DNA from: Candidatus Methanomethylophilaceae archaeon
Lineage (GTDB): Archaea; Thermoplasmatota; Thermoplasmata; Methanomassiliicoccales; Methanomethylophilaceae
Direction of reading: 5' to 3'
Length of the DNA stretch: 64,000 bases
Assembly: GCA_944320495.1 (NCBI GenBank)
Contig: CALUHR010000002.1
Location: 36,609-100,608 of the forward strand
Shown: piece after piece, positions 10,315 to 53,496 of the stretch
Numbering within the stretch: position 1 is the first letter of the stretch
How the letters are laid out: every line of letters starts with the position of its first letter
Program-made: the position numbers and the translations under genes
The notes under the pieces: model-generated
Databases searched by the model: none
Told to the model about the DNA's origin: nothing
What the model saw: the letters and a program-made list of their open reading frames with translations, nothing else

Positions 10315-11172
10315 TCGTCCGGACCTGCGGACTGCCATGACCGCGATCGCCATGAACAGGGCGGTGACTGCGAGCGAGTACACCAGGGACGCGACCGCCG
10401 AGAACTCGAATCCTCCCAGCGCCAGGTCGAACCCCATGTCCGTCCTGAAGCCCTCTAGGACATCCGCGGGCGCTCCGGAGAACACGTCCCCAAGGGCCTC
10501 GGAGCACAGCGCCTCACGGAACAGCGCGGCCATCTGGCTGGCCGGGACCAGAGTCCCCACGACCTGCATCGCCTCTGGCATGGTGCCCATCGGCATGTAG
10601 ATGCCAGACAGGAACCCGATCATCACGCTGACCACGGTGAAGAACCCGGAGAACGCCCCGGTGCTCCTGATGAACGACACCATCGCATACACGATTACCG
10701 AACCGGTAAGAGCCGAAGGTACCAGGAGGACGATGCACTCCGCGACACCGGCGGCGGACAGCGGGCAGCCCACGGCGACCAAGTACGCGAGGCATATCAC
10801 AAGAGCGATCAGGCTCATGACCAGGCCGGACGCGAAGGTGCTCAGCACGTGACCACCGACGACCTCCCACCTGCTCAGGGGCGTGACGGCGATGTCCCTG
10901 TCCCTTCCGGACACACGGTCCTCGACCATGGTCTGCAGCGAACCCGCCGAGGCCGTGACGGGGACGATGCCCAGGATGCCCGCCATCACCCATGCGTCGA
11001 TGAGATGGGGCATCCCGTCCATCTCCGGGTACGAGGAGATGAGGATGTCCCTCAGGAACAGCAGGTACAGCAGCACCACGATGAGGACGGCCATCAGCGA
11101 GAACAGGACCGACTGCCTGTCGCGAAGATAGCACAGGGTGTTCCTCTTCGCCAGTGCCAGCATCCCGCTCAT
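10315..11172 (-). CDS. ABC-2 type permease (end placed at in-frame CGA 10315-10317; standard code reads through to 9931)
   Basis: ABC-2 TM pattern, FLSGIYMP; last TM ends ...MAVRRSG then CGA and a 42-nt spacer. Confidence 0.8.
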
Positions 11173-12095
11173 TCCATCTCCTCCCCCGTGATCCTGATGA
11201 ACGCGTCGTCCAGCGTCCCTGTCCTGACCTCGAACGAGGACATCATGCCCTCCAGCCGTCCTAGGACCCCCACCGCATCCAGCGTGGAAACCATGGGGAC
11301 CTCGAAGACCCCGCGAGACTCCGAGTATCCCAGACCCATGGAGTCCAGGACCCCGCGGACGCCCTCCGGGTCCGATGCGGCCACCGTGAGCATGTCCGAG
11401 CAGTACGTCTCCTTGAGGAACTCGGGCGTGCCGTGGGCAACGACCCTTCCGCGGTTGATGACCACCACGTCATCGGCATCGGCCGCCTCCTCCATGTAGT
11501 GGGTGGTCAGCAGGACGGTCATCCCCTCCTCGGAGCTGAGAGACCTGACGGTTTCCCAGATGCGCATCCTCGTCTGAGGGTCCAGGCCCGATGTGGGCTC
11601 GTCGAGCAACAGCAGCCTGGGACGGTGTACCAGGGCCCTGGCTATGTCAGCCCTCCGCCTCTGCCCTCCCGACAGGTCCCCGTACCTGCGGTCGGCGAAC
11701 TCGTCACAGTCCGCCAGCTTCATAGCGTCGAAGACGGCATCGGAGAGCTCGGTGCCCGAAAGACCATACATCCCTCCCCTCAGGGCCAGGTTCTCGCGGA
11801 CGGTCAGGATACGGTCCATCATGGACCCCTGGAAGACCACCCCTACATCGCGCCTCACCGCCGGATCGCCCGCGTCCCTGCCGAACACCTCCACGATACC
11901 TGAATCGCGTGCCAGGGTGGAGCATATGATGGACAGCGTGGTGCTCTTGCCGGCCCCGTTGGGGCCGAGGAAGGCGAAGAACGATCCCGCGGGGACCTCG
12001 AACCCTATGCCGTCGACCGCACGCACGCCGCCATAGCTCTTGACGAGGTCGCGGACGATCAGGGCGGGAACATCTGTGGTTGCGTCTTGGGCCAT
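11169..12095 (-). CDS. ABC transporter ATP-binding protein
   Basis: GPNGAGKST, LSGGQRRR, LLLDEPT, TTHY. Confidence 0.95.
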   Translation of the reverse strand: MAQDATTDVPALIVRDLVKSYGGVRAVDGIGFEVPAGSFFAFLGPNGAGKSTTLSIICSTLARDSGIVEVFGRDAGDPAVRRDVGVVFQGSMMDRILTVRENLALRGGMYGLSGTELSDAVFDAMKLADCDEFADRRYGDLSGGQRRRADIARALVHRPRLLLLDEPTSGLDPQTRMRIWETVRSLSSEEGMTVLLTTHYMEEAADADDVVVINRGRVVAHGTPEFLKETYCSDMLTVAASDPEGVRGVLDSMGLGYSESRGVFEVPMVSTLDAVGVLGRLEGMMSSFEVRTGTLDDAFIRITGEEME

Positions 12096-12228
12096 TGTGG
12101 GACTCCCCCGGGTCGGAACGTGACAGACCGGCGAAACCGGAACACGGACCTCGGATATCAACCAACCGATGGAGTGCTATGGAGAACTGGCTCTTGGTAT
12201 GATGAAAATTGAAGAAAAAGGAAATGAG

Positions 12229-12301
12229 TGCTCCCGACGGGATTTGAACCCGTGTCGAAGCCTCGAGAGGGCTTCATGATTGGCCGCTACACTACAGGAG
12301 C
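12229..12301 (-). tRNA. tRNA-Glu(CTC)
   Basis: Cloverleaf GCTCCTG...; anticodon arm AAGCC-CTCTCGA-GGCTT; GGTTCAAATCC T-arm; TATA-like TTATATAC upstream (12327-12334). Confidence 0.95.
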
Positions 12302-12345
12302 TTGTTAAACCTGGGAATGCTCCCATGTATATAATGTTTTCGGTA

Positions 12346-13128
12346 TCGGAAGTCACTCGGGCGGATCGCAGGCAGTCTCTTGTGCTCCATGGACCTCACC
12401 TGAGCCCTGATTCTGGCGATTTCGGACAGTTCGAGACCCGTGTCTGCGGCGATCTGCGAGTCTGAACAGTCACGCTCGAGATCGAACAGGATGCCGTCGA
12501 GATCCTCGTACCTGATGCCCATCTCCGACTCGTCAGTCTGTCCCTCCCAGAGCCCGGCGGACGGGGGCTTGGCGATTATGTCCTCCGGGACGCCGATGAT
12601 CCTGGCCAGCTGCCTGACCTCGGTCTTGTAGAGGTTGGCGAGCGGAGTGACGTCGCATGCGCCGTCGCCGAACTTCGTGAAGTATCCCATCATGATCTCG
12701 CTCTGGTTCGACGTACCGAACACCAGGTAGTCTCTCTTCTTCGCCATGTTGTACAGGACGATCATCCTGCATCTGGCGGAGATGTTTCCCCTCTCCAGAG
12801 GCGTCTCCTTCCCGGACAACAGGACCGCCGCCAGGGCGTCCACCGCGGGCTGGATGTCGACCACCTTGTACTCGGCCCCCCACATCGAGCTCAGTTCCGA
12901 GGTGACCTTGTAGTCCTCGGCGGGCGTCACACGGGAGGGCATGAAGATGTTGAGCACCCTGTCGGGACCCAGCGCGTCCGCGCACAGTTTGGTGACCGTG
13001 GCGGAGTCCAGACCTCCGCTGAGACCGACCACCGCTCCCTTGCATCCCGTGCGCTCGGCGGTGGTGCGGATGAATGAGACGAGGGCATCAGCATCCTCTC
13101 TGGTGACCTGCGGGATCTTGGACGACAT
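12346..13128 (-). CDS. nadE: NH3-dependent NAD+ synthetase (end placed at CGA 12346-12348; standard code runs into tRNA-Glu, TAG at 12292)
   Basis: GLSGGLDS, GYFTKFGDG, PPSAGLW motifs. Confidence 0.92.
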
Positions 13129-13204
13129 ACCCTCCGGGAATCGTGTGCTGCGGATTTAACGTTGTTCCCGATGGGATTTAAAGGGAGGGCAACGATAAGA
13201 GTTT

Positions 13205-13987
13205 ATGCAAGTGGACATCGCACTGTGCCAGATCCGTCCGATGACCGGATCCCCGGAGATGAACGCAGAGACGGTGGCCAACATGCTGGTATCCCGGGAC
13301 GAGGAGGTCCTGATTTTTCCCGAGTCCTTCCTCACCGGTTACGGGGTGTCGCCCGAAGGCCTGGAGGAGCGCATCTCCGCCGCGCTGACCACCATCTCTG
13401 ACACCTGTCGCAAGTACGACAAGGCGGTGGCCGTGGGAACCCCCATGCCGAGTCCAGAGGGATGGACCAACAGCCTGGCGTTCCTATCTCCCGACGGCGA
13501 CTCATATTACGACAAGATCCACCTCGCCAGGTTCGGCGTGTACGCCGAGGACGGGTACGTCGCCGGCAGGAAGCCGTCGATGGGGTCCTACCACGGCATC
13601 AGGTTCGGATTCAGCATATGCTACGACATCTACTTCCCCGAGGTCCTGCACGGATGCTCCCTGAGACGCGCGGACGTGAACATATGTATCTCCGCGGCGG
13701 CCACCCCGTCCGCGCCTTACTTCGAGACCATCCTGCCCGCCAGGGCCCTGGAGAACGTGACCTACCTCGCGTTCGTGAACAACGTGGGTCCCGCCAACAG
13801 CCTCGTCATGGCAGGGACGTCCCGCGCCGTGGATCCTCTAGGCCGGGAGATCGTGCGCTGCCCCGCCGACACCGAAGCGGTCGAGACCTTCACTTTCGAC
13901 ACGGAAGTTCTCGCGAAGGCCCGTTCCACACGCAGACATCTGCAGGATTTCAGGTCCGACATAGACTGGTTCAGGCAAAGCTTTTAA
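13205..13987 (+). CDS. Nitrilase / carbon-nitrogen hydrolase
   Basis: E-K-C triad: FPES, YDKIHL, ICYDIYFPE; ends TAA. Confidence 0.9.
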   Translation: MQVDIALCQIRPMTGSPEMNAETVANMLVSRDEEVLIFPESFLTGYGVSPEGLEERISAALTTISDTCRKYDKAVAVGTPMPSPEGWTNSLAFLSPDGDSYYDKIHLARFGVYAEDGYVAGRKPSMGSYHGIRFGFSICYDIYFPEVLHGCSLRRADVNICISAAATPSAPYFETILPARALENVTYLAFVNNVGPANSLVMAGTSRAVDPLGREIVRCPADTEAVETFTFDTEVLAKARSTRRHLQDFRSDIDWFRQSF

Positions 13988-14016
13988 TTAGGGGTTCGAG
14001 TTCCCCCAATCCTTAA

Positions 14017-14100
14017 GCCGAGATGGCCCAGCCCGGTAAGGCGCGAGCCTGGAAAGCTCGTGGGAACTTTCCCTCGGGAGTTCAAATCTCCCTCTCGGCG
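14017..14100 (+). tRNA. tRNA-Ser(GGA)
   Basis: CGAGC-CTGGAAA-GCTCG anticodon arm, long variable arm, GTTCAAATC. Confidence 0.95.
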
Positions 14101-14173
14101 CTTCTTCCCATTTTTCCGACCCTCACCCCTATATACGCTCCGCCCATCACCGCCTCATAATAGGTGCGCGCGC

Positions 14174-14665
14174 ATGATAGTGAACGCTGAGCTCTACGTC
14201 AAGGACCTCCCTGGACAGCTGGTCGGCTCCCTCGAGCCCATATCCGTCGTGGACGGGAACATCCTGGGAGTCGTCCACAACCGCGAGAGGATCGTGAACC
14301 ACCGCATCTGCATCAACATCACGTTCGAGGCGGAGGACGACCAGCTCGAGAGGCTCAAGGCCATCTGGAAGTCCAAGGACATCATCATCTCGAAGATCGG
14401 GACCGCCTATGAGACCTTCACCATGGACTACATGCTGATAGGCGATATCGATGCGAGGTACATCGAGAGGCTCATCAACAAGGCATCCACGATAGCGGAC
14501 CTCGACGGTGTCGAGGTCAGCTACTCATCCAAGACCGGGGACTACTCCAAGCGCACCGGCATGCTCTCCGTGAAGACCAAGAGCCAAGAGGACCTGGACA
14601 AGCTTGACGGCTTCCTCGACGACGAGTGCCGCCGCAGCGGCATCACATACGTGAGGGGTGTCTGA
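14174..14665 (+). CDS. ACT-domain protein (homoserine dehydrogenase-associated)
   Basis: KDLPGQL ACT signature; directly upstream of hom. Confidence 0.8.
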
Positions 14666-14666
14666 G

Positions 14667-15671
14667 ATGAGGGTTTTCATCTGCGGATTCGGAACAGTGG
14701 GACAGGGCTTCTGTGAGGTCCTGGCCGCCCGCCGCCAGTTCCTCATAGACCGCTACGGGGAGCCAGTCACCGTCGTCGGGGCCATGGATTCCAAGACCTA
14801 CGCCTACAACCCGAACGGGTTCGACCCCCTGGAGCTCGTCTCCGTCAAGCAGGGGACGGGGAGGGTCGGCACTGAGACGTACCAGGACTCCGTCGAGGTC
14901 CTCTCCGGAGCGGAGTTCGACATCCTCGTTGAGGTCAGCCCCACCGATGTGAAGACCGGCGGAGCCGGACTCAGGAACATAGAGTACGCGCTCGGCAACG
15001 GGAAGGATGTCATCACGGTCAACAAGGGCCCGCTGGCCCTGAAATTCCGCCATCTCATAGACCTGGCCGAGAGCAACGGATGCTGCCTCCGCTTCGAGGG
15101 ATCCGTCGGCGGCGCCATGCCCATCATCAACCTCTGCCGCGACAACCTGGCCGGAGAGAGGATAGAATCCATACGCGGCATATTCAACGGAACATGCAAC
15201 TTCATACTCAGCAAGATGGACACCGGACAGCCGTTCGAGCAGGTCCTCAAGGAGGCCCAGCAGATGGGCTACGCCGAGACGGACCCGACAAACGACATCG
15301 AGGGGTACGACAGCGCGTGCAAGGTCGTCATCCTCGCCAACGCCGTGTTCGGCCGCGACGTCACGTTCAACGACGTGAGGATCACCGGCATCACATCGAT
15401 CACCGAGGACGCCATCTCCCTGGCCGCCTCGCACAACATGGTCATAAGGCTCATAGGTGAGGTCTCCGAGAGCAAGCTGGAGGTGGGGCCCAGGCTCGTG
15501 CCCAGAGGACACCCCCTCGGCATCTCTGGGACACTGAACACCGCCCAGATCCTGTCCGACCTCGCCGGACCGGTAACGGTCACCGGCAGGGGTGCTGGCA
15601 GGATCGAGACCGCCTCGGCGATACTGAGCGACCTCATATCCATCATGGACGAGAGGGCGAGACGGCGATGA
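14667..15671 (+). CDS. hom: Homoserine dehydrogenase (ends CGA-TGA)
   Basis: GFGTVG, TVNKGP, FEGSVGG, GIFNGT, GYAETDP, GRGAG. Confidence 0.95.
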
Positions 15672-17233
15672 GACGTGTATTCATCTACGACACCACGCTC
15701 AGGGACGGCGCCCAGTGCGAGGGCGTCTCGTTCTCCTGCGAGGACAAGCTGGACATACTGAGGAGACTGGACTCGTTCGGGACGGACTTCGTCGAAGGCG
15801 GATGGCCCGGATCGAACCCCAGGGACGACGAGTTCTTCGCCCGCGCATCCAGCCTGGGATTGACGAATACAGCGCTCACCGCCTTCGGCAGCACCCGCAG
15901 GTACGGTGTGCGTCCAGAGGATGACGCGAACCTGAAGGCATTGGCATCCTGCCCAGCCGAGTGGTGCTGCATATTCGGGAAGTCCTGGGACTTCCAGGTC
16001 ACGGAGGCCCTCGGCATCTCTCTTGAGGAGAACCTCGCCATGGTGGAGGACAGCGTGGCCTTCCTCGCATCCAAGGGCAAGAGGGTCATGTTCGACGCCG
16101 AGCACTTCTTCGACGGCTGGAGGTCCGACAGGGAGTACGCCCTGAGGGTCCTCGAGGCCGCCGAGAGGGGCGGCGCCGGGTGGGTGGTCCTCTGCGACAC
16201 CAACGGCGGATCGCTGCCGTCCACGGTGGCGGAGGGGTGCAGGGACGCCATCTCCCGCGTCAGGATACCGGTCGGGATCCACTGCCACAACGATTCCGAT
16301 CTGGCCACCGCCTGCTCGCTCGCCGCCGTGGAGGCTGGATGCACCATGGTCCAGGGGACCGTGAACGGCCTCGGCGAGAGGTGCGGCAACGCCAACCTCT
16401 GCGCCGTCATCCCCGACCTGGCACTCAAGATGGGCGTGGACGTCGGCGAGGCGGACATACCCGGCATCACCGGGCTATCGAAGTTCGTGGGGGAGGTGGC
16501 CAACATGTCACCCTCCCCGGGGATGCCCTTCACCGGCGACCGCGCGTTCGCCCACAAGGGCGGGATGCACGTCTCCGCGCTGGTGAAGAACCCGCGCACC
16601 TACGAGCACGTCGACCCGGCATCGGTGGGCAACGCCAGGAGGGTCCTGGTGTCGGACATGGCAGGGAGAGCGAGCATCTCCGAGAAGCTGAGGGAGCTCG
16701 GCCTCGAGCCGGGCGAGGACAGCCCGGAGATCACCCGCATGATCAAGGAGATGGAGTCCCGCGGATACGAGTTCGAGGGGGCGGACGCCAGCTTCGAGCT
16801 CCTCGTCAGGAGGCTTCGCGGGGACCTCGCCCAGAGGTTCCGCGTGGAGGGCTTCAGGGTGTTCATGGACAGCCGCGAGGGCGGCATGGACTCCGAGGCC
16901 AGCGTGAAGGTCGTGGACGCGGACGGCGTGATGGAGCACACCGCCGCTGACGGCAACGGTCCCGTCAACGCCCTCGACAACGCGCTCAGGAAGGCCCTGC
17001 AGGGCTTCTTCCCGGGACTCAAAGAGATAAGACTGACTGATTACAAGGTACGCGTCCTCGACGAAAAATCGGCCACAAGGGCCAGCGTCAGGGTGCTGAT
17101 CAGGACCACCGACGGGGTCAACAGCTGGACCACCGTGGGCGTGTCCGAAAACGTGATAGAGGCGAGTCTAATCGCACTCATCGATTCCCTGGAATACGCC
17201 CTCATGCTGCAGGGCCAGGAGGAGATACAATGA
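15668..17233 (+). CDS. cimA: Citramalate synthase (LeuA/CimA family)
   Basis: [36 protein letters not shown]. Confidence 0.85.
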
Positions 17234-17502: not shown

Positions 17503-17506
17503 GAAC

Positions 17507-18871: not shown

Positions 18872-19032
18872 CCGGGCGGAAGCCCGGCAAACCCCTTCCA
18901 TTCTTCTCTCGATTCTTGCAGAAGGACCGGGTGCTCGGACCGATGATGGAATCATTCAAAAATTAAGGGATTTAAGAAAAGTTTGCTCGGCACCGAAGTG
19001 CCAGAGAATTAGAAGTAGTGAAGTGCACAAGG

Positions 19033-19201
19033 TGGGGGCAGAGGGATTTGAACCCTCGTCAGCGGGTTTCCTCCACCGGGGAGCGACCCCGGATGAATCA
19101 ATGAGTCATCGCTCCAGTTAGTCATCAACTGTCAGCAAACCCATTTTCAATCACTCTCAATAACTGGAGCCCACCAGTCTGCCAGGTTAGCCTATACCCC
19201 C
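19033..19201 (-). tRNA. tRNA-Trp(CCA) with 96-nt intron (19068-19163)
   Basis: 5' exon GGGGGTA...GTGGG-CT-CCA-G; 3' exon A-CCCGC...GGTTCAAATCC...TGCCCCCA. Confidence 0.92.
19068..19163 (-). ncRNA. Intron-encoded box C/D guide RNA of pre-tRNA-Trp
   Basis: D' CTGA (19132-19135), C' TTGATGA (19122-19128), D-like ATGA (19106-19109); guides pair with C39 and C34 by the +5 rule. Confidence 0.85.
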
Positions 19202-19227
19202 TTGTTGAGCGTGATTGCGAGTTGCAA

Positions 19228-20711: not shown

Positions 20712-21590
20712 ATGTACCAGCACACATAGATGACGTTCGAGAGCATGGAATCGGAGATCCAGGACCTCAGCTTCCACAGTGCCGTCCTGAGAAGGGACTC
20801 CCGCTCCGGTAGGCATTGGGATTCAACCGTCATGAGAACCCCCGATGGGAGCTTCACCAATCTCGCCCTCATCTTCTCTGACCAGTGCCCCTGGTCCTGC
20901 GAGATCCGCGTGGACGGCGATGCGGAGTACGTCGCGACTGGATCAGTACTCGAACAGATTCATGTCGTCGGACAGCAGGTAGTCACCATCCGCCGCAGGC
21001 TTTCGGAGAAGGCTGGGACCGGGGTGACGAAGATACAGGGTCTGGCGTTCTCGGAGGTCCTGCTCAACGCCATCTGCCATCGCAGCTACTGCGATCCCTC
21101 GCCCATAGTGGTGGATGTGAATCTGGAATGCACAACAGTGACCTCCCCCGGCGGCATGATGAGACTGGGGATAAGCTACAGGGAGCGCACGAGGAACCCG
21201 CGTCTGACCGAGATTCTCGTATCCATGGGATACAAGAACACGGCCATACGCGGCATGGCGGGTGTCAGGAGGGCCTATCGCAGCTGCTAGTACAGGCCGG
21301 AGGTAACCGTCGGGGATTCATGGAGCGTCAGCCTGCCGGGGATGGTGGAGCTCGGCTCCGCCTATGAGGGCAGGAGATGCAACGTCATCAGATACATGCT
21401 GGGACACGGCCCCGTAGACGAGGATGAGATCGTGAGAAGGCTCGGGATGGCGGCATCCACGGCGCACGAGGTCCTGTGCAGGATGACCGACGAGGGCGTC
21501 CTGTTCTCCATGGGAGACAGGGATGACAGGAGGTTCTTCCTGAGTGACAGACCCAGATGGGCAGGCATCGCGAACGGACACCGTCACTGA
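20712..21590 (+). CDS. RecG-C/ATP-binding + wHTH regulator-like protein with in-frame TAG codons (candidate Pyl protein or pseudogene)
   Basis: TNLALIFSDQC, EVLLNAICHRSY, RNPRL motifs; ORFs 20730-21290 and 21342-21590 share one frame separated by TAG 21288-21290; another TAG at 20727-20729 follows ATG 20712. Confidence 0.6.
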
Positions 21591-23432: not shown

Positions 23433-24545
23433 TCAGACGAACGCGCCGATGGTGGGCGCGTCCAGACGGTCCATGTCGTAGAAGATGATGGCCTCCCTCA
23501 TGCCCTCGGCGCCGCATCCGGTGCCCATGAAGTGATCGAGCAGCGACATCCTCCAGAGCAGGTCCATGATCGACACGGACAGGCACCCATAATAGGAGTT
23601 AGACATGTCGTCCTCGTAGCCGTTCTCGTCCATCAGGGAGAAGACGCTCCCCATGAAGCTGTCCCTGGAGTTCAGCGTACGTATGTAGTCCCTCAGGACC
23701 GCGGCACCCTCCTGGTCGGGCACCCTGAGCCGGACGTCGGCGGCGTCGGCGAACGCCTTGTGGTGGAGCTCGCCCTCGTCGTCCATGACCATCCACTCGA
23801 CGGTGCCGTCCACGGCCATGAACATGTTCCAGTTCCACTGCGGGTCGCAGTACACCGGAACGCTGAGCGGATCCTCGGAGCCCATGGACTCCATCGCGGA
23901 CTCCATCCCCGCCTCCTGCAGGGACGCCATGTCAGGCTCCCTGTCCGGCTGGATGGCGCGGAGGGACATCACCGGCTCGATGGAGGCGGCATCCATGATC
24001 CTGCCCAGGTACGAGATGTCGGAGAACATGGCGAGGTTCTCGGACACGGACATCCTCAGACCGGAGGGGTCCACCATCACGCCGGCCTCGCGGCAGTTGG
24101 CGTAGAACTCCGTGTAGACGGCCTTGGACTCCGCCATCGCGGCGTCCGCCCTCGATGATGCCAGCGCCACCACGGAGCGGGCCTCGTCCATGGCGCTGAC
24201 GCCGCTGCCGGTCCAAGCCCCCCTGCATGAGAGGTCGAGCTCGACCTGCAGACGGTCGCTGGCGTAGAGGTGGAACGGGAACTGGCGGCAGTAGGCCGGC
24301 CTGTCCTTGTACACGGAGCACCTCCTCCCGTTGAGGAACGTGCAGGAGCCGCGGCCCTTCTTCAGCGCGAGCGCGGTGTAGGGCTCCGGACCCCTGGATC
24401 TCACGAGCGCCGAGGGGTGGTTCCTCTTGAAGAACGGGCGCTCCTCCGGAAGGACCTCCGGCTGGCACAGGCAGCACATGCCGCACTGAGGGGGGCACTC
24501 GACGAGCCTCCCCGATATCTCTGAGTAATCGACCTCGTAGTCCAC
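23433..24545 (-). CDS. YkgJ-like cysteine-cluster (Zn/Fe-chelating) protein
   Basis: CGMCC, CTFL, CSVYKDRPAYCRQFPF; GTG start at 24545 overlapping the pyrC end. Confidence 0.8.
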   Translation of the reverse strand: MDYEVDYSEISGRLVECPPQCGMCCLCQPEVLPEERPFFKRNHPSALVRSRGPEPYTALALKKGRGSCTFLNGRRCSVYKDRPAYCRQFPFHLYASDRLQVELDLSCRGAWTGSGVSAMDEARSVVALASSRADAAMAESKAVYTEFYANCREAGVMVDPSGLRMSVSENLAMFSDISYLGRIMDAASIEPVMSLRAIQPDREPDMASLQEAGMESAMESMGSEDPLSVPVYCDPQWNWNMFMAVDGTVEWMVMDDEGELHHKAFADAADVRLRVPDQEGAAVLRDYIRTLNSRDSFMGSVFSLMDENGYEDDMSNSYYGCLSVSIMDLLWRMSLLDHFMGTGCGAEGMREAIIFYDMDRLDAPTIGAFV

Positions 24546-25803
24546 GGACGTCCCTTCCGATTGGTTCGCCGCAGAACTCTCCGTCCCGTACTTGAAGGCT
24601 TCCCCTGACGCAGACGCATCTCGGGAAGACGGCCGGGAACCCCCCGTAGGGGGAGTGGCCACACCTGCTGTGCAGACGGGGCACGTCTATGGGTGCGGAC
24701 CGCCTGAGGTCGAAGATCGCGAGGTCCGCATCGTAGCCCTCGGCAATCCTGCCCTTGGGGACGTCGAACAGCCTGCCGGCGTTGTACGATCCCATCCTGA
24801 CCGCCTCGGACAGCTGGAGATCGCCCCTGCGGACCATCTCCATCATCATGGGCACCGCCGTCTCCACACCCGGTATGCCTGACGGCGCCTCGGCGAACGG
24901 ACGGTCCTTCTCGTCGGCCGCATGGGGCGCGTGGTCGGTCCCGAGCATGTCGAACCCGCCCCCCATGAAGAGGGCGCGGAGGGCCTCCCTGTTGCGGGCG
25001 TCCCTCAGCGGGGGGTTCACCTTGTACTCGGCGCCGGGGTTGCGATCGGCGTCGAAGGTGATGTGGTGCATCGTGCATTCGGTGGAGAAGCCTGCATCCC
25101 TCGCCATGGCCAGACCCTCTGGGGTGGTCAGATGGCAGATGTTGATGCTGGATCCGCGGAAGTTCGCGGCCAGTCTGGAGATGGCCTTCCACTCCGCTTC
25201 GGCCGGACGGTTCCTCAGGTGGTCCCTGCAGCACCGCTCCTCCCCCTTCGATATGAAATGGTCGTCCTCAGCGTGGACGCTCATGCGCCTGCCGGTGGCG
25301 AGCACGTCCCTGACCGCCGGGATCATCTCCTCGTCGTCGTCCAGGAGGATGTTCCCAGTCGTCGATCCCATGAACAGCTTGAACCCCACGACGAGCGGCG
25401 CCAGCATCCCGGCGTTGATTCCCGCGGTGACCGCCGCGAACAGACCGTAGTCCGTGACGGCCTTCCTGCCGACGACGGCCTTCTTCTCCGTGAACGTGCG
25501 GACGTCGGTGACGGGCGGCACGGTGTTGGGCATGTCGTACACGCAGGTCACTCCCGCGTGGACCGCAGCTAGCGTCCCGGTGCCGAAGTCCTCCTTCCCG
25601 GTCATCCCGGGGTCGCGGAGATGCACATGTGGATCGATGAACCCGGGCAGCATGACGTCGCTGGTCCCCAGCTCGATCCTCCTGTCCCCTCCACGCACCA
25701 TGCTGCCTACGGAGACTATCCTCCCGTCACAGATCCCGACCTCGGTGTACCTGAGCTCCCCGTCGACGAGGGCCCTGCCGCACACCACGGTCTCGATGTC
25801 CAA
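24535..25803 (-). CDS. pyrC: Dihydroorotase (end placed at CGA 24535-24537, 422 aa; standard code gives 623 aa)
   Basis: PGFIDPHVHLRDPG, DMPNT, KVNPPLR, GTDHAPH, GIPGVET. Confidence 0.92.
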
Positions 25804-26389
25804 TGTCCTCCCTCCGGACGATGTCGCCGCGCGGGGTGGTCTCGCGCCAGGCCTCGCCCGTGAAGGTCTCTATCCTGGCCCCCTCGCGCCTCCATGTTCC
25901 CGGCGGGAGACCCGCCTTCATGCAGAGATGGTCGAGGTACTCCTCCTTGTCCCAGCCCTGCTCAACGGGGACCTGCGGGAGGAACAGCCCTCTGCGGCCC
26001 ATGAACGATAGTATCAGCCCGTCGCGTCCGATGACGATGCTCTTCAGAATCCCCTCGGGCGTGTCCGCGCGTATCGCCTCCGGCCTGCTCAGGACGGTGA
26101 CCTCGACGGTCACGCCGCCGAGCTCCCCGGGGGACAGGCGGGGGAACCTCGGATCGTTGCAGGCGGATCCGGCCGCCTCGACGATAGCCCTGCCCAGCGG
26201 CATCACGGGCATGGGGATCCCTATGCATCCGCGGAGCTCTCCGGCTGGGAACGTGTCCAGGGTGACGAACGCCCCTGCGGAGTCCGAGAAGGCGCCGATG
26301 TCGGGGATCGCCGGTGCCGGACGGCCCGAGGCCTCGGCCTCCACGGCCGATCTGGCCAGTCTAACTGCCTCCTCGCCCTGGAGCATCAT
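25793..26389 (-). CDS. AMMECR1-family protein (end placed at CGA 25793-25795)
   Basis: GAFVTL, LRGCIG, DPRFP, GLFLPQVPVEQGW. Confidence 0.9.
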
Positions 26390-26841
26390 CGCTCACCGAC
26401 ACCCTTGAAGACGCCGTCCGCGTCCCTGCGGTCGTCGGAGACGATCTCGACCCTCTTGGGGGCCTCCCTGCGGCATTCGTGGGCCCTGCAGGCGGCGTCC
26501 TTCATGGTGGCCTCGGTGCTGCGGAACCCGTCCCTGACGGGAGCCGGCATGGGAGCGCGCTCCATCAGGGCGCTCATGCCCATGAAGAACTCCAGGCCCA
26601 TGTTCACGAAGTGCCTCTGCACCTCGGGGTCTGTGAATGCCGAATAGGCAGTGCGGGCGAGGTCCTCCGCCCTGGCGCGGGACTCGTCGGCGAATCCCCT
26701 GGCGTGCCCGTAGGCCTGCCTGGCCGCGTCCCTCTCGGCATCGACGAACTCCCTGGCGGCGCTCTTCTGCGTCTCGATCATCCTCTCTATGAGGTCCCTG
26801 TTGTTTGCGACGAACGCCTCGAACTCTTCATCTGTGGTCAT
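26386..26841 (-). CDS. Hypothetical helical protein (ends CGA-TGA)
   Basis: 151-aa ORF coupled to both neighbours. Confidence 0.75.
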   Translation of the reverse strand: MTTDEEFEAFVANNRDLIERMIETQKSAAREFVDAERDAARQAYGHARGFADESRARAEDLARTAYSAFTDPEVQRHFVNMGLEFFMGMSALMERAPMPAPVRDGFRSTEATMKDAACRAHECRREAPKRVEIVSDDRRDADGVFKGVGER

Positions 26842-34304: not shown

Positions 34305-34305
34305 C

Positions 34306-34755
34306 ATGTACGGACTGACCCAGTGCGGCCTCTGCCGCCGCCCCCGGATCGTCGAGACGAACGACTCCGTCACCACCTGCCCGTACTGCGGGCATTCGGA
34401 GCGTGCCGGAAGGAACGGGTTCATCTTTACATCCGAGAGCCAGTCGGAGGTCCGCGCCGCGCTGTCCAGGGCCATGGGCGCGGACGAGTTCCTTCCGACC
34501 CAGGCGGACCTGAGGGAGAGAAGGAGGAGGATCGGGGAATCGGATCCGGAGTCCACCCTGGCCTACCGCTACGAGCATGCCACGGACCTCGAAGAGAAGA
34601 TGGAGATCCTCTCGGAGGGGCTCACCGCCCTCAGAGGGGAGTTCACCCTGGAGGATGTCGAGGGGTACGAGCCCAGGAGGGCGGAGAAGATGCTCTCCGC
34701 CATGCTGGACCGCGGCTTCGTCCACGAGACCCGTCCGGGATTCTATCGGGCGCGA
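34306..34755 (+). CDS. Zn-ribbon + winged-helix protein (DUF1922-like; end placed at CGA 34753-34755)
   Basis: CxxC...CPYC N-terminus; C-terminal MLDRGFVHETRPGFYRA then CGA abutting the convergent gene's stop. Confidence 0.75.
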
Positions 34756-35481
34756 TCACTTCGACTTGGGGATGTCCCCGCGCTTCTTGCCCTCCATCAG
34801 GAGGACCTCACGGACGATGTTGGGCAGCTTCCTCTGCATGATGTAGAAGTAGTACAGGCCACCGAGGACCAGCATCAGAACCATGAACGCGTAGAACAGC
34901 AGGCTGTCACCGTTCAGGATGGCACCGCAGAGCAGCATGTCGTAGGCCACCATCGGCAGGAGTGCCTGGAGCGCGAACTCCATGACGCGGTGCCTGGCTA
35001 TGCCCTCTCCAACGTTGGTTCCGCATGCGCCCATTATCAGGGACATCGAGACGGACAGCAGGATGAGGACGACGAACGACGGACCTATGGAGACGTCCAT
35101 GTCCGTGAGCGCCCCGTAAATGAGGAAGCAGAACCCGGTGGCGAACCCGCAGGAGTTCCCCAGACCGAGGGCGAAACCGTAGAACACGGAATCCGACTTG
35201 CCCCTGAACCTGCGCAGGTTCATCACGAGCACCATGGCCAGTATCTGGATGACCGCGAGCAGAACCATCAGTATGATGCTCGATGCAGCGTTGAGTATGC
35301 GCATCGCCACGAAGACGATCGATCCCTCCACGAGGCCGACCACGAACAGCATGAAGAACGTGGGGTCGCTGAAGAACGGCTGCTCGACCCTCGGATAGGT
35401 GTAGTTCCTGACACCCAGGAACATGAGCGCGAGAGCCGGCGCTATCCCGACCACCATGGCGATGCCCATTACAGCGTCCAT
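34756..35481 (-). CDS. Hypothetical multi-pass membrane protein
   Basis: 241-aa hydrophobic ORF, FYGFALGLG. Confidence 0.75.
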   Translation of the reverse strand: MDAVMGIAMVVGIAPALALMFLGVRNYTYPRVEQPFFSDPTFFMLFVVGLVEGSIVFVAMRILNAASSIILMVLLAVIQILAMVLVMNLRRFRGKSDSVFYGFALGLGNSCGFATGFCFLIYGALTDMDVSIGPSFVVLILLSVSMSLIMGACGTNVGEGIARHRVMEFALQALLPMVAYDMLLCGAILNGDSLLFYAFMVLMLVLGGLYYFYIMQRKLPNIVREVLLMEGKKRGDIPKSK

Positions 35482-46706: not shown

Positions 46707-47044
46707 TCGAAACCCCTTACCGGCCCCTCCGTCTTCTGGAGGGGCCGAGACTCACATCAGCGCGGCCATCATCGATGTCACAGTCAGCACGATGACCGCG
46801 AGTATCGGCGCATTCGTCATCAGGGCGTTCTCGAGAGCGTACGACCCGGACCTCTCCGCGACACTGCTGGCGGAACGGGACCCCTCGTCACGGTATGACG
46901 AGTGCGCATCCTGGATTCGTGCATGGTTCATCGTCACTGCCGATGACCCCCTTGATCCCGTCTCACCATGCTAGATGTGACGGAAGTCCAGGCCATGGCG
47001 CATCCGTAGGATCGATGCGAGAAGAGGGTTTGGAGAGTCGCCCC

Positions 47045-47542
47045 TCGAAGTCTCAGCTTGGGGTCCCTGAGGTCCAGGAGCGCGACCTCGCGCCTGTCCA
47101 TGAAGAAGCCCAGGTCCTTGAACATCAGGATGGACGCCTTGTTGTCCGGCTGGATCATCGCGTGCGCCACCGCGGCGCCCTGCTCCCTTCCGAGACGGAC
47201 GCACTCCCGCAGGAGCCTGATGCCGATCATGTTCCTGCGGAAGTACGGATGCACGCCCATGTTCTCGATCCAGAGGAGATTGTCCTCGTCGCAGATGTGA
47301 TGGAGCATCTGGGCGAAGATGAAGCCGACGATCTCGTCGTCCTCCACCGCGACGAGGCTGAGCCCGCTCTCCAGGTACGCCTTGAAGTGGTTCCTGCTGC
47401 TGGCGCCGAGGTTGTCCTTCCAGTCCTGCGGGAGGTCCTCCCACCGGTTCTCAAGGGTCTCGGCGAAGTACTCGCGTATGCACGAGAGCTCCAGCTCGCG
47501 GACCTTCTCGATGTCGCGGACCTTCAGCGGGCGGATCTCCAT
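47045..47542 (-). CDS. GNAT acetyltransferase (end placed at CGA 47045-47047, 165 aa)
   Basis: MGVHPYFRRNMIG acetyl-CoA motif, DNKASILMFKDLGF. Confidence 0.85.
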
Positions 47543-47544
47543 GC

Positions 47545-49314: not shown

Positions 49315-49324
49315 TGTGAACACC

Positions 49325-50557
49325 TCAGTTGGGCCTGTACCTCAGAAGGGCGGCCACGCCTCCGAACGCCTTCAGGAGCATGTCCCCCTCCTCGGAATCG
49401 CCCGAGATCAGCTGCAGGCGGGTGTTGTACGCATCCGCCCTGTTGAAGAAGTCGTCGATCAGGTCCTCGTCCTTCGTGACGGTGGCGGACTGCCCGCACT
49501 CGGGGCACTGGAACTTCTGGTCCGCGTCGGCCACTGTCTTCTCGTGGATGTGCCCGTTGGGGCACTCGAGGGTGATCCTGCGCTTCTTGAGGGAATCCGA
49601 CAGGAGGAGCATGTCCACTGCGCCCATGTCCAGGGCGCTGCGGACCTCGTCCTCTCCGTAGCACGAGAGACCGCCGTCCGCCTTGCGGATCTCGGTGAAG
49701 AGCCTCTGCATGTACACCTTCTCCTGGGTGAGCTGCATGTCCGTGATGATCCCCTGCGCATTCTGGACCAGCTCCCTCAGGCCGGATTCGTCCGTGTAAC
49801 CGGTATCGACCAGCGGGCTGACGACCTTCTTCCTCAGCTCGTGGTGGAGGTACTCCTCCTTGACGAAGAACTCCTTCGTCGCGCCGGGCCCGCCTATCAG
49901 GATGCCCAGGAGCTCCGGGCGGTTGAGGAAGACCTCGGTCGCGTTGTCGGCCACCTTCTTGAAGAACTCGTGGGCCGCGATCTCGATCAGCCTCTCGAAA
50001 CGGACGGACGACTGACCTCCCTGGTGGTGCTTGCTCGGGACGAGCGAGTCGAAGTGCTTCAACACCTGGATCCTGCTCCCCGACAGTATGCCCAGGGTGG
50101 CCTCGGACCTGTCGATGGTGATCAGACCGTAGCATTTCTTGTCCAGGAGCATGGACTCCAGCGGCTCGGTGAAGAATGTGGAGTCGCACCTGTACAGGAA
50201 CGCCGTGATCGGCTCCGGGGGGTTGATGACGTACTGGACCATCTTGGTCTGGTCGCCCGCCCTGGGAACCTCTCCGCAGAAGATGACGACGCCGTTCTCC
50301 GGCGGTGACTTGTAGGTTTTGAGTCGAGCGGCTATCGAATCGATCGCGCTCTGGACGTTCTTCATCGTGGTCTTGGACTTGATGTTGGACGCCTGGGACT
50401 GCTCGTTCCTCAGGTAGGCCATGACGTCGGAGATCTGCTTGGTCTTGGGGACGTAGACGGAGATGAGCTCCGTGCTCCTGCCCCTGTAGTTCTGGATCTC
50501 CTGCATGTCCTTCTTGAAGTCGTACTTCGCCCTGTCCTCGGAGTTCTTGTCTGCCAT
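49325..50557 (-). CDS. prf1: Peptide chain release factor aRF1 (contains in-frame CGA at codon 78)
   Basis: ASNIKS, YRCDSTF, GGQS motifs. Confidence 0.97.
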   Translation of the reverse strand: MADKNSEDRAKYDFKKDMQEIQNYRGRSTELISVYVPKTKQISDVMAYLRNEQSQASNIKSKTTMKNVQSAIDSIAARLKTYKSPPENGVVIFCGEVPRAGDQTKMVQYVINPPEPITAFLYRCDSTFFTEPLESMLLDKKCYGLITIDRSEATLGILSGSRIQVLKHFDSLVPSKHHQGGQSSVRFERLIEIAAHEFFKKVADNATEVFLNRPELLGILIGGPGATKEFFVKEEYLHHELRKKVVSPLVDTGYTDESGLRELVQNAQGIITDMQLTQEKVYMQRLFTEIRKADGGLSCYGEDEVRSALDMGAVDMLLLSDSLKKRRITLECPNGHIHEKTVADADQKFQCPECGQSATVTKDEDLIDDFFNRADAYNTRLQLISGDSEEGDMLLKAFGGVAALLRYRPN

Positions 50558-50697
50558 GGGAATCACCCTTCGGGTTTCTGGTGTCAAATGGGTCAGCCTA
50601 TTAACCTTTGCTCCCTTAATGCGCGCGCATCCGCGCGGAACCGCGCTGGACCAGCAAGTTATTAGTCGGGGTCGGGGATTGCGGGACGGTATATCCC

Positions 50698-51381
50698 ATG
50701 GACAAGGTTGTGGTCTCCGTCGGCGGATCGGTCCTGATCCCCGGTAACAACGATTCCGAGTACATCTCCAGGCTGGCCGGCATGCTCTCCTCCGTCAAGG
50801 ACGAGGTCCAGCTGGCCGTCGTCTGCGGGGGAGGGCGCACCGCCCGCTACTACGCGACCACCGGCCGCGAGCTCGGAGGGGACACATACCAGCTCGACAT
50901 CATGGGGATCGCCGCCACCAGGATCAACGCCCAGCTCCTCGGGGTCGCCCTCGGCGACATGCCGGAGCGCGTGCCCGAGACCGCGGCGGAGACCGCCAGG
51001 GCCTCCGAGCCCGGAAGGATAGTCGTCATGGGAGGGACCGAACCCGGCCATACGACCGACGCCGTCGCCATGATGGTCGCCCGCGAGATGGGGGCGGACC
51101 GCGTGGTGAATGCCACGGCCGTCGATGCCGTGTACACCGCCGACCCCCGCAAGGATCCGAACGCGGAGAAGATACCCAGGATGACCATCGAACGCCTCGG
51201 CGAGCTCGTCTACAAGGAGCACGACGCCTCCGCGTCCAGCGTCTTCGACCCCCTCGGGGTGCAGATAGCCAGGGAGTCCCGCATCGACATTTCGATGGTT
51301 GACGGCAGGAACGTCGAGGAGCTCAGGAAGGCCATCCTCGGACAGCCGTTCGACGGGACCTTCGTGGATTCTCACAACTGA
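50698..51381 (+). CDS. pyrH: Uridylate kinase
   Basis: VVSVGGS, VVCGGG, PGHTTD, DPRKDPNA. Confidence 0.95.
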   Translation: MDKVVVSVGGSVLIPGNNDSEYISRLAGMLSSVKDEVQLAVVCGGGRTARYYATTGRELGGDTYQLDIMGIAATRINAQLLGVALGDMPERVPETAAETARASEPGRIVVMGGTEPGHTTDAVAMMVAREMGADRVVNATAVDAVYTADPRKDPNAEKIPRMTIERLGELVYKEHDASASSVFDPLGVQIARESRIDISMVDGRNVEELRKAILGQPFDGTFVDSHN

Positions 51382-51383
51382 GA

Positions 51384-52217
51384 TCGGAGCGGCTCGAAGT
51401 CCTTCGACTTCACGCACTCGTATCCCAGCGACGCCGCTATGTCCGCGATGCGGTGCTCCTCGGGCCCCTTCATCGACTTGCGGTGGATGTAGACGGAGTC
51501 CGTGGCCGTCGCCTCGCAGGCGTCCCTTATCATCCTGGCTATGTCCTCGTCGCCCCTCCCCTCGAGCTGATAGTTCGGGATCATGTGGCCGAAGTTCACC
51601 CTGCTCGACAGGGCGGCCTCCGTGAACCTTGGGGCGTAGTGTCCCCCTCCGATCCCCACGAGGCTGCGGTACTCGTCGTGCGGCTCCAGGTCGGCGATGA
51701 CATGTGCCAGCACCTCCGCGAGATGCCTGTCTCCCCAGTGGGTCTCGTCACTTCCGATCTCGATGTAGAAGGTCGGCTTCCCGAGCCACGGGCCGTGATG
51801 CGTGACCTCGAAGCATGTCTGGACGGACGGGTCCGAGTTCAGCGCGTGGATTCTCCTGACGGCGTCGGTCATCGCGGCCGGTGCCGATCTCACCAGCGTC
51901 TCCGTCCTCCCGCCGAAATCCGCCTCGTGGTAGTTGCCGATCGGATGGGCGGTCAGCGCCGGGCGTCCGCTCTTGGACGAATGCCTCGACATCACGACCA
52001 CATAGTCCGGGTCCACCCCGAACCTCGCGGCCTCCAGATCCAGGTCCTCATGCCTGATGTGCATGTCCGCTATGCTCATCATCACGTCGTCCTCCCTGCG
52101 CATGTAGGAGGCCCCCTCGGAGGACCCCATGTCCTCCCATCCGCCCTGGGACAGGAGGGACTCCCTCATGTTGACGGACGGGAGGTCCGCCTCGCTGCAT
52201 ACGATGAGCCTGGACAT
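51384..52217 (-). CDS. dtdA: D-aminoacyl-tRNA deacylase (archaeal DTD2 type; end placed at CGA 51384-51386)
   Basis: SRHSS, LTAHPIGN, EVTHHGP, EIGS, GGGHYAP. Confidence 0.9.
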
Positions 52218-52326
52218 GCGGCCTCCATGGCGGCCCCCGTATAAGCGCTTCCCCTCTAAGCTCTTAATTTCTACTGCTGTGGAATGTATTTGGACCGTTT
52301 ATAAACAGGCAGAAGGGGTCCGGTGC

Positions 52327-53496
52327 ATGAACAAGTTCACGCTCGCCGAACGCGCGCTCCTGCACCTGTACCGCTACAGGCACGTGTCCCCGGCGATAGA
52401 GATCGACGCCCCGAGGGAGATGACCCAGACCGGTGTGGCCGAGGCCCTGGGGATCTCCAGGTCGCACGCCTCCCTCATAACCGCCAGGCTGGAGCAGGAG
52501 GGGAAGATCTACGCCGGGAAGTCGCGCATCATAGGCCAGAACCGCGGCGGTGCGAGGAAGATCTACTTCATCACGCCTCTCGGCAGGGAGACCTGCGAGG
52601 AGCTCAGACGCACGATGGAGGCGCAGGGGATAACGGAGGACGACCTCCTCGTGCCGTACAACATCAACTACTGCAGCTCGTCCGCGTTCTGGTCGCTCCC
52701 TCCGGAGGAGAGGGCGGAGCTGGGATGCCTCCTGGTCCTCCGCGTGCCGGTCAGCCGCCGGGACTTCAGGTCCCCGCCGTCCCAGCTCGTGCCGTTCGAC
52801 TTCCGCGGATACCTGGCGATCAAACAGGAGACCCGCAGGTGGTACCTGCAGAGGGCGGACGTCGAGAGCCTGAGGAGCTGGCACAGCGCCGCCGCGGACT
52901 GGTGCATGGACAGGAGGTGCGATCCGAAGGAGAGGCTGTACCACCTCTACAGGTCCGGCCGCAAGCGGGAGGCGGCGCGGCTCGCGTCCTCCCAGAGGTT
53001 CATGCTGATGGACTTCCCCGATTCGGAGACCCGCGACATCGTGTCGGTGCTGGCGGACGAGTTCTCCGACCCGGAGCTGTGCCTCACATCGGCCAGGATG
53101 AGCCTGCGCCTTGGGGAGACCAGGAGCGCGATGTCGCAGCTGGAATCCTCGCGCAACGACCTCGGGACCTCCGGCGACGCGCTTCGCTCGGAGATAATGC
53201 TGGCCGAGGGGGAGACGGCATCCGCCCTCGACGAGGCGCTGGACGCCTACGTCGGCGATGTGGACACGGCGGCCGCGCTCGGGCTCTGCATGGTCGCCAA
53301 CGGGAGGTACGAGGAGGCCCTGACTTATCTCCGCAGATGCAGGGGCGAGATGCGCAGGACCGGCTGCCTGTTCCGCCTTGACGAGATCCTGTCGGTGCAG
53401 GCGAAGGCCCTCAGATGCCTGGGCGCCACGGCGGAGGCGGAGGCCTCCGAGGCCGCGTCCCAGTACTGGCGCAAGGATCCGCTGCACAGGTACCGA
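52327..53496 (+). CDS. Winged-HTH + TPR-like helical protein (end placed at CGA 53494-53496, 389 aa)
   Basis: TQTGVAEALGISRSH...KIYFITPLG wHTH; standard code would run about 300 codons antisense into pheS. Confidence 0.75.

What the first reader, a model, noticed from the sequence alone, without database searches (positions are those of the whole stretch)
10315..53496. CGA behaves like a stop codon: found at expected gene ends, absent inside genes
Seen: eight genes lack TAA/TGA/TAG at their expected C-terminus and have an in-frame CGA there: ABC permease 10315-17, nadE 12346-48, pyrC 24535-37, AMMECR1 25793-95, DUF1922-like 34753-55, GNAT 47045-47, dtdA 51384-86, wHTH-TPR 53494-96. Two more end CGA-TGA (hom, ORF 26386-26841). 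Seen: going by eye through several hundred Arg codons in the confidently called CDSs, internal Arg is AGG/CGC/CGT/AGA/CGG, and the only internal CGA found is in aRF1. Under the standard code these genes gain junk tails, some of 200-390 codons, running into neighbouring genes or a tRNA. Inference: CGA terminates translation, by direct aRF1 recognition, by C-to-U editing to UGA, or by stalling on an unassigned codon plus rescue. Known CGA/CGG changes that I recall in prokaryotes are sense-to-sense; I know of no CGA-to-stop case.
Basis: partly seen in the sequence, partly recalled or inferred. Interest (0 to 1): 0.96.

Follow-up and report, generated by a model that had tools for sequence, protein, structure and literature searches.

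The report
Arginine codon CGA ends genes
In this gut methanogen and its genus, the arginine codon CGA is missing from inside genes and instead ends about a quarter of them, so it very probably acts as a fourth stop codon, which has not been established for any free-living organism.

Summary
The genome is a Methanomethylophilaceae archaeon (Methanomassiliicoccales) close to Ca. Methanoprimaticola.

- **Gene ends:** in my gene calls about 410 of about 1,670 genes (24%) end at CGA. After these ends, the distance to the next TAA/TAG/TGA is as random as after TGA stops.
- **Gene bodies:** only about 6-9 in-frame CGAs have coding sequence on both sides. Most of those sit between adjacent same-frame genes.
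- **Relatives:** the homologous stop toggles between TGA and CGA within the genus. Nine same-genus genomes have 0 CGA in about 39,000 homology-supported codons. Other families of the order use CGA as Arg.
- **tRNA:** CGA is not unassigned. A tRNA-Arg(UCG) is kept, but its anticodon arm is abnormal only in this genus.
- **Release factor:** the aRF1 gene keeps exactly one in-frame CGA at a conserved Arg, in a fixed context, in 38 of 38 clade sequences.

Best reading: aRF1 reads CGA as a weaker stop in competition with a weakened tRNA, and the CGA in the aRF1 gene acts as a feedback sensor.

Cultured M. alvus looks like an earlier stage. No paper found reports this. Other windows of this scan flagged the same signal, including a follow-up on another genome. 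Reads and RNA data could not be checked.

The parts
10315..10317 (-). CGA ending the ABC-2 permease gene. A glyoxalase-family gene follows in the same frame.
12346..12348 (-). CGA ending nadE (NAD synthase). The next standard stop is 17 codons on, near tRNA-Glu.
15666..15671 (+). CGA-TGA tandem end of homoserine dehydrogenase.
24535..24537 (-). CGA ending pyrC (dihydroorotase). The homologous codon is TGA or CGA in sister species. The standard-code tail is about 200 codons.
25793..25795 (-). CGA ending the AMMECR1 gene.
26386..26391 (-). CGA-TGA tandem end of the ORF at 26386-26841.
34753..34755 (+). CGA ending a small DUF5817/DUF1922-like gene. It abuts the TGA stop of the convergent gene at 34756.
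47045..47047 (-). CGA ending the GNAT acetyltransferase gene.
49325..50557 (-). aRF1 gene (eRF1 family), 410 aa from the likely ATG. NIKS, YxCxxxF (YRCDSTF) and GGQ motifs are intact.
50324..50326 (-). The single in-frame CGA inside aRF1. It is codon 88 of the open frame (residue 78 from the ATG) and aligns to a conserved Arg 17 residues after NIKS. The context NCT-CGA-CTN is invariant in 38 clade sequences.
51384..51386 (-). CGA ending dtdA (D-aminoacyl-tRNA deacylase).
53494..53496 (+). CGA ending the wHTH-TPR gene. It abuts the TGA stop of the convergent gene at 53497.

Best explanation
In this genus of Methanomethylophilaceae, CGA has changed from an arginine codon into a working stop codon, used alongside TGA, with TAA and TAG rare.

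Most likely the single archaeal release factor aRF1 accepts CGA as a near-match of UGA. It would do so in competition with a tRNA-Arg(UCG) that is retained but has a weakened anticodon arm.

Because termination usually wins, CGA has been purged from gene bodies and is free to replace TGA at gene ends. The aRF1 gene keeps one in-frame CGA at a conserved Arg, in a context unlike genuine CGA stops. There the tRNA must win for full-length aRF1 to be made. More aRF1 would therefore mean more truncation of its own product, which is negative feedback.

Shown: the codon distribution, the TGA/CGA interchange, the tRNA features and the aRF1 CGA. Inferred: recognition by aRF1, competition with the tRNA, and the feedback loop.
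For: **Genome-wide pattern**
- Gene calls with CGA allowed as a stop give 1,663-1,676 genes: TGA 1,186-1,196, CGA 406-410, TAA 52, TAG 18-19.
- The distance from a CGA end to the next standard stop has median 24 codons, with 40% at 40 or more. After TGA stops the median is 28, with 41% at 40 or more.
- 43 long tails have hits in relatives. Of the 27 I inspected, 5 are the next gene in the same frame and 22 overlap a gene in another frame or strand, mostly antisense through the convergent gene. None looked like a true extension.

**Relatives**
- Homologs in CGA-using genomes end within 5 codons of the G000 CGA in 98% of 44 pairs (6 genes). For TGA-ended controls the figure is 95%.
- The pyrC stop is TGA in 4 same-genus species and CGA in 8 sequences (including this genome), at or within two codons of the same aligned position.
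- Nine same-genus genomes have 0 CGA in about 39,000 homology-supported codons. Eleven genomes of other families have 2-31 each, most often aligned to Arg.

**tRNA-Arg(UCG)**
- It is present (Rfam tRNA, 55.7 bits) with compensatory changes in its stems. The 31:39 pair is unpaired in 11 of 11 sequences, or the loop has C33 in place of U33 in G005, G007, G008 and G015.
- Relatives outside the genus have C31-G39 and U33.

**aRF1**
- CGA at codon 88 occurs in 38 of 38 distinct clade sequences, with U at -1 and C at +4 always. Genuine CGA stops have T at +4 in 54%, C at +4 in 17% and T at -1 in 10%.
- Other CGA-purged genera keep exactly one CGA in aRF1, at codon 21, 35, 60, 133 or 337, with 0 CGA in about 950 flanking codons.

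**Strength of the stop**
- The top 10% of genes by codon bias use CGA stops in 4.0%. The bottom half use them in 34.6%, as expected of a weaker stop.

**Precedent**
- Yeast eRF1/eRF3 can decode CGA as a stop, and UGA-biased variants at the x of YxCxxxF, including L123R, enhance this (PMC7379694). This aRF1 has Arg at that position.
Against: - There is no direct evidence.
- A tRNA able to read CGA exists, so some readthrough is likely and the stop may be leaky.
- No aRF1 substitution separates CGA-stop users cleanly from non-users. NIKS and YxCxxxF are unchanged, and T-to-A three residues before YxC correlates only partly.
- No conserved RNA structure was found next to the aRF1 CGA.
- A few other possible internal CGAs exist: a flavodoxin-like gene, a coiled-coil/TM protein, and a gmhA/gmhB-like junction.
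- Gene calls come from my own self-trained codon model, not from a validated gene finder.
Confidence: 0.7

Rival explanations
1. CGA is an inefficiently decoded, near-unassigned codon. Ribosomes stall there and are released by a rescue pathway (aPelota/ABCE1 type), not by aRF1-catalysed termination.
For: The tRNA-Arg(UCG) anticodon arm is abnormal in this genus. M. alvus tolerates CGA only in the last few codons of genes, with a standard stop close behind. That looks like a harmful codon and not like a clean stop.
Against: A quarter of all genes would depend on rescue, which does not hydrolyse peptidyl-tRNA on its own. It gives no reason for aRF1 in particular to keep one CGA in dozens of species. 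The TGA/CGA interchange at the same site suggests near-equivalent function.
Confidence: 0.12
2. C-to-U editing of mRNA turns CGA into UGA, which aRF1 then reads normally.
For: It would explain both the avoidance of CGA in genes and its equivalence to TGA. RNA data could not be examined.
Against: No mRNA editing of this kind is known to me in archaea (my knowledge). Editing would have to be near complete at about 400 sites yet spare the aRF1 CGA. It does not explain why a tRNA-Arg(UCG) with covarying stems is kept, or why aRF1 always holds one CGA.
Confidence: 0.05
3. CGA is still Arg everywhere, and the genes really carry the long C-terminal extensions, or the CGAs are assembly or base-calling errors for TGA.
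For: A tRNA-Arg(UCG) exists. The genome is a metagenome-assembled draft of 14 contigs.
Against: Tails have noncoding codon statistics and random lengths, and they run through neighbouring genes. CGA is purged from gene bodies, which errors cannot cause. The same pattern is seen in many independent assemblies, including single-contig genomes.
Confidence: 0.03

Closest known systems
Sense-to-stop reassignments in organelles (vertebrate mitochondrial AGA/AGG, Scenedesmus mitochondrial TCA, Thraustochytrium mitochondrial TTA; NCBI tables 2, 22, 23)
   Same: A former sense codon is absent from gene bodies and sits at gene ends. For AGA/AGG it is also a former arginine codon.
   Different: Those are tiny organelle genomes with few genes, usually without the cognate tRNA. 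Here it is a free-living archaeon with about 400 affected genes, the cognate tRNA retained, and one eRF1-type factor that would have to accept C at the first stop position.
Misdecoding of CGA as a stop by yeast eRF1/eRF3 (Wada and Ito 2018, PMC7379694)
   Same: [quoted passage not shown] UGA-biased variants at the x of YxCxxxF, including Arg, increase it, and this aRF1 has Arg there.
   Different: In yeast it is a minor side reaction at rare codon repeats. Here it would be the normal meaning of the codon.
Unassigned codons (CGG in Mycoplasma capricolum, Oba et al. 1991, as cited in PMC8629427)
   Same: An arginine CGN codon disappears from coding sequence.
   Different: There the tRNA is missing and the codon is not used to end genes. 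Here the tRNA is present and the codon ends 24% of genes.
Autoregulation of bacterial release factor 2 (prfB) through an in-frame UGA (my knowledge)
   Same: The gene of the release factor contains, in frame, a codon that the factor itself terminates at, conserved across species.
   Different: prfB escapes by +1 frameshifting on a defined slippery/SD signal. Here escape would be plain decoding by tRNA-Arg(UCG), and it is inferred only.
Speculated CGA stop in two Njordarchaeales MAGs (bioRxiv 10.64898/2026.04.02.715157)
   Same: CGA is absent from HMM-matched regions of an archaeal genome, and the author raises a possible stop meaning.
   Different: That is a different phylum. tRNA(UCG) is absent there, CGG is reassigned to Trp, and no analysis of gene ends was done.
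Proposed 'Genetic Code 34' (all TAG read as pyrrolysine) in Methanomethylophilus and others (bioRxiv 10.1101/2024.09.30.615893)
   Same: It is the same family, and the stop-codon set is already altered there. TAG is very rare as a stop here too (18-19 genes).
   Different: That is stop-to-sense. CGA is not mentioned in that paper.

Membership tests
Sense-to-stop codon reassignment | The codon is absent from conserved positions inside genes. | tested here: met
   There are 6-9 coding-coding CGAs genome-wide against 434-906 for other rare Arg codons. Nine same-genus genomes have 0 CGA in about 39,000 homology-supported codons.
Sense-to-stop codon reassignment | The codon sits at homolog C-termini with no standard stop nearby. 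| tested here: met
   98% of 44 homolog pairs end within 5 codons of the CGA. Tail lengths equal those after TGA stops. TGA and CGA interchange at the pyrC stop.
Sense-to-stop codon reassignment | The cognate tRNA is lost. | tested here: not met
   tRNA-Arg(UCG) is present with covarying stems, though its anticodon arm is abnormal.
Sense-to-stop codon reassignment | Release at the codon is shown biochemically or by proteomics. | not testable with these tools
No peptide data are available.
Unassigned codon | No tRNA can read the codon, and the codon is not used as a terminator. | tested here: not met
   The tRNA is present. 24% of genes end at CGA.
Release-factor autoregulation through an in-frame stop (prfB-like logic) | An in-frame copy of the factor's own stop codon is conserved in the factor's gene. 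| tested here: met
   CGA at codon 88 occurs in 38 of 38 clade sequences. Other CGA-purged genera have one CGA at another codon.
Release-factor autoregulation through an in-frame stop (prfB-like logic) | A defined recoding signal is present at the site. | tested here: inconclusive
   The -1 U and +4 C are invariant and differ from genuine CGA stops. No conserved RNA structure was found.
Release-factor autoregulation through an in-frame stop (prfB-like logic) | Factor level feeds back on its own synthesis. | not testable with these tools
   This needs reporter or in vitro translation assays.
aRF1/eRF1 class-I release factor | eRF1 domains and the NIKS, YxCxxxF and GGQ motifs are present. | tested here: met
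   Pfam eRF1_3 scores 90.3 bits. The motifs are seen in the translation and alignment.
Elongator tRNA-Arg(UCG) | Cloverleaf, UCG anticodon, A20, and a canonical anticodon arm (U33, paired 31:39). | tested here: not met
   The cloverleaf, UCG and A20 are present. However, 31:39 is unpaired in 11 of 11, or C33 replaces U33 in a second type.

The most novel reading that the evidence does not exclude
CGA is a dual-meaning codon in a free-living archaeal lineage. By default it is a stop read by aRF1. This would be the first natural sense-to-stop reassignment in a cellular genome, and the first stop codon that does not begin with U to be read by an eRF1-type factor. At one programmed site in the aRF1 mRNA it is instead read as Arg by a deliberately weakened tRNA-Arg(UCG). 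That forms a feedback loop setting the balance between release factor and tRNA. Living intermediates of the transition would exist, including cultured Methanomethylophilus alvus.
Probability: 0.5. Interest if true: 0.97.

Novelty: new variant of a known kind. Interest (0 to 1): 0.93.

Why it matters
- **Genetic code evolution:** no sense-to-stop change has been established in a free-living organism. This case would show how one arises: codon purging, then a weakened tRNA, then capture by the release factor. The intermediate stages are still alive in related genera.
- **Release factor specificity:** it bears on how eRF1-type factors define the first stop-codon base.
- **Annotation:** standard gene calling gives false C-terminal extensions or gene fusions for roughly 4-25% of genes in these gut methanogens. 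This corrupts public protein databases.
- **Applied use:** the family supplies the PylRS/tRNA-Pyl pairs used for genetic code expansion, and cultured or named relatives exist (M. alvus, Ca. Methanoprimaticola sp. MG2). The claim is therefore directly testable.

Tried and rejected
- **Diagnostic aRF1 substitution:** none separates users cleanly from non-users. Met after NIKS and the FCGEVPRAGD block are shared by the whole family, and T129A correlates only partly.
- **Readthrough-stimulating RNA structure next to the aRF1 CGA:** the consensus fold is weak and has no compensatory pairs.
- **Six-frame test of whether TAG is sense:** antisense shadow frames swamped it, so I draw no conclusion from it.
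- **Homology of the long post-CGA tails:** this first looked like evidence for real extensions (43 of 165 with hits). Of the 27 inspected, all were the next same-frame gene or overlaps with genes in another frame or strand, mostly the convergent gene read antisense.
- **Flavodoxin-like gene with an internal CGA:** close relatives have AGG there, so it is a sporadic event and not a second programmed site.
- **Artefact and plain-Arg readings:** rejected, as set out under the rival explanations.
Full report
**Origin of the window.** The window is G000:C2:36609-100608 of a 1.77-Mb, 14-contig genome with 62% G+C. Its aRF1 is 100% identical to that of an 'uncultured Methanomassiliicoccales archaeon' MAG and 91% identical to Ca. 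Methanoprimaticola sp. MG2. The other relatives are Methanomethylophilaceae.

**Check of the observation.**
- All eight sites read CGA in the gene's frame.
- A self-trained codon model that allows CGA as a stop ends genes at each of them, and at the two CGA-TGA tandems.
- Pfam domains finish a few residues before each CGA. In the ABC permease ORF, a separate glyoxalase domain follows the CGA in the same frame, so the standard code would produce a false fusion.
- The only CGA inside a gene in the window is in aRF1, at 50324-50326.

**Genome-wide pattern.**
- I classed each in-frame CGA in stop-to-stop ORFs by the coding score of the 40 codons on either side. Only 9 have coding sequence on both sides, against 434 for CGG, 895 for CGT and 906 for AGA. 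Another 73 have coding sequence upstream and noncoding sequence downstream.
- With four stops allowed, 1,663-1,676 genes are called: TGA 1,186-1,196, CGA 406-410, TAA 52, TAG 18-19.
- The distance from a CGA end to the next standard in-frame stop has median 24 codons, 40% at 40 or more and 26% at 100 or more. After TGA stops the values are 28, about 41% and 23%. No hidden standard stop backs up the CGA.
- 43 of 165 long tails have hits in relatives. Of the 27 I inspected, 5 are the next gene in the same frame and 22 overlap a gene in another frame or strand, mostly the convergent gene read antisense. None looked like an extension.

**Relatives.**
- At the pyrC stop, four same-genus species have TGA. 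Eight sequences (including this genome) have CGA at or within two codons of the same aligned position. The change is silent in the overlapping start of the next gene.
- In 20-kb samples, nine same-genus genomes have 0 CGA among about 39,000 homology-supported codons. Eleven genomes of other families of the order have 2-31 each, most often aligned to Arg.
- In several same-genus genomes, CGA lies exactly at the aligned C-terminus of genes that end in TGA or CGA here.
- Homologs in CGA-using genomes end within 5 codons of the G000 CGA in 98% of 44 pairs (6 genes). TGA controls give 95%.
- These are independent assemblies, some of them single contigs, so an assembly artefact is excluded.

**Spread and stages.**
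- Within the family, 20-kb samples show 0-1 CGA in seven genera, including Methanomethylophilus, and 1-10 in seven others.
- Gene calls on 400-kb samples give these shares of CGA ends:

| Genome | Genes ending in CGA | Tails to next standard stop |
|---|---|---|
| This genome (G000) | 24.5% | random, as after TGA |
| G013 (Ca. Methanoprimaticola sp. MG2) | 11.6% | random, as after TGA |
| G008 | 4.1% | random, as after TGA |
| G048 | 2.8% | median 4 codons, none at 40 or more |

- G048 is 1,666,795 bp, the size I recall for M. alvus Mx1201.
- In M. alvus, every in-frame CGA found lies within the last 25 codons of its ORF, most within the last 10. It therefore looks like an earlier stage, in which CGA is purged and tolerated only where truncation is harmless.

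**tRNA.**
- CGA is not unassigned. ARAGORN and Rfam find a tRNA-Arg(UCG) at 55.7 bits.
- Eleven same-genus copies show compensatory changes in the acceptor and anticodon stems, so the gene is under selection. The 31:39 pair is unpaired in 11 of 11.
- A second type, in G005, G007, G008 and G015, has the loop CCUCGAC (C33 in place of U33) and a 27:43 mismatch.
- Other families, and other genera of the same family including M. alvus, have C31-G39 and U33.
- tRNA-Arg(CCG) is also present and can read CGG, so the UCG tRNA is needed mainly for CGA.

**aRF1.**
- NIKS, YxCxxxF (as YRCDSTF) and GGQ are intact.
- The in-frame CGA aligns to a conserved Arg 17 residues after NIKS. In 38 distinct sequences of the clade (at least 81% identity) it is always CGA.
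- The codon before it is always NCT and the codon after it always CTN, while neighbouring codons vary freely at synonymous sites.
- Genuine CGA stops differ: T at +4 in 54%, C at +4 in 17%, T at -1 in 10%.
- Other CGA-purged genera also keep exactly one CGA in aRF1, at codon 21, 35, 60, 133 or 337, with 0 CGA in about 950 flanking codons. Lineages with several CGAs in aRF1 mostly have CGA in the flanks as well. M. alvus has one, at the YRG motif.
- With CGA otherwise near zero in these genomes, one copy per aRF1 gene cannot be chance.
- No substitution in aRF1 marks the users cleanly. No conserved RNA structure flanks the site.

**Strength of the stop.**
- Genes in the top tenth by codon bias end in CGA in 4.0%. 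Genes in the bottom half do so in 34.6%.
- CGA is directly followed by a standard stop in 6.2% of cases, against 3.4% for TGA.
- This fits a weaker, somewhat leaky stop.

**Mechanism.**
- Shown: the codon distribution, the TGA/CGA interchange, the tRNA features and the aRF1 CGA.
- Inferred: aRF1 reads CGA in competition with the tRNA, and its own CGA gives negative feedback.
- Precedent: yeast eRF1/eRF3 decode CGA as a stop to some extent and compete with tRNA-Arg. UGA-biased variants L123F, L123R and L123Y at the x of YxCxxxF enhance this (PMC7379694). This aRF1 has Arg at x.
- Editing and stalling with rescue remain possible but explain less.

**Literature.**
- Searches found no report of CGA as a stop in Methanomassiliicoccales.
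- Codetta-type screens cannot infer stops.
- One 2026 preprint only raises the possibility for two Njordarchaeales MAGs.
- The 'Code 34' preprint on TAG as pyrrolysine in this family does not mention CGA.

**Earlier notes of this scan.** Other notes flagged the same signal in other windows of this genome. One follow-up on another genome reached a similar verdict. I tested the claim independently here.

Noticed in passing
window 34753-34758 and 53494-53499; genome-wide in G000: 41 of 410 CGA-ended genes abut exactly the stop of a convergent gene: 13 CGA|TCG pairs (the CGATCG palindrome) and 15 CGA|TCA. Only one TGA|TCA pair exists among 1,196 TGA-ended genes. CGA stops are followed by TCG in 13.7%, against a background of 1.4%. 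This is unexplained, and may reflect a context requirement of a weak stop.
   Followed up: partly
G000 genome-wide; window 20826-21290: TAG ends only 18-19 of about 1,670 called genes. Most ORFs that end in TAG under the standard code have an earlier CGA. This fits amber avoidance or pyrrolysine use in this family. My six-frame test of TAG as a sense codon was confounded by antisense frames.
   Followed up: partly
G000:C8:55361-55837 (+), locus L273: A flavodoxin-like gene has an internal CGA at codon 109, where the closest relatives have AGG (Arg). It is either a young pseudogene or depends on leaky readthrough.
   Followed up: yes
G000:C13:193669-194673 (-), locus L275: A gmhA-like SIS domain and a gmhB-like HAD phosphatase are joined in frame by a single CGA, with no obvious start codon except a Val two codons later. 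They could be two coupled genes or a readthrough fusion.
   Followed up: partly
G000:C5:178103-179095 (+), locus L274: A CGA at codon 211 is followed in frame by two predicted membrane helices and a second CGA at codon 279. This could be an internal readthrough CGA or a small separate membrane protein.
   Followed up: no
G000:C1:21187-22227 (+), locus L276: The second eRF1-domain protein of the genome (Pelota-like) itself ends at CGA. Another gene follows in the same frame 40 codons later.
   Followed up: partly
window 9931-11172 (-): The ABC-2 permease and a glyoxalase-family gene lie in the same frame, separated only by CGA. Standard-code annotation would fuse them into one 413-aa protein.
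   Followed up: yes
window about 19031-19201 (-) (G000:C2:55639-55809): ARAGORN with introns allowed finds a tRNA-Trp(CCA) with a 96-nt intron just downstream of tRNA-Arg(TCT). tRNA-Tyr also needs the intron option to be found.
   Followed up: no
G048 (1,666,795 bp, apparently M. alvus), loci L253-L272 and L404: In this cultured relative, CGA occurs in 10 of about 110,000 called codons, all within the last 25 codons of ORFs. aRF1 has one CGA, and the tRNA-Arg(UCG) anticodon arm is normal. It looks like an intermediate stage that could be tested at the bench.
   Followed up: partly
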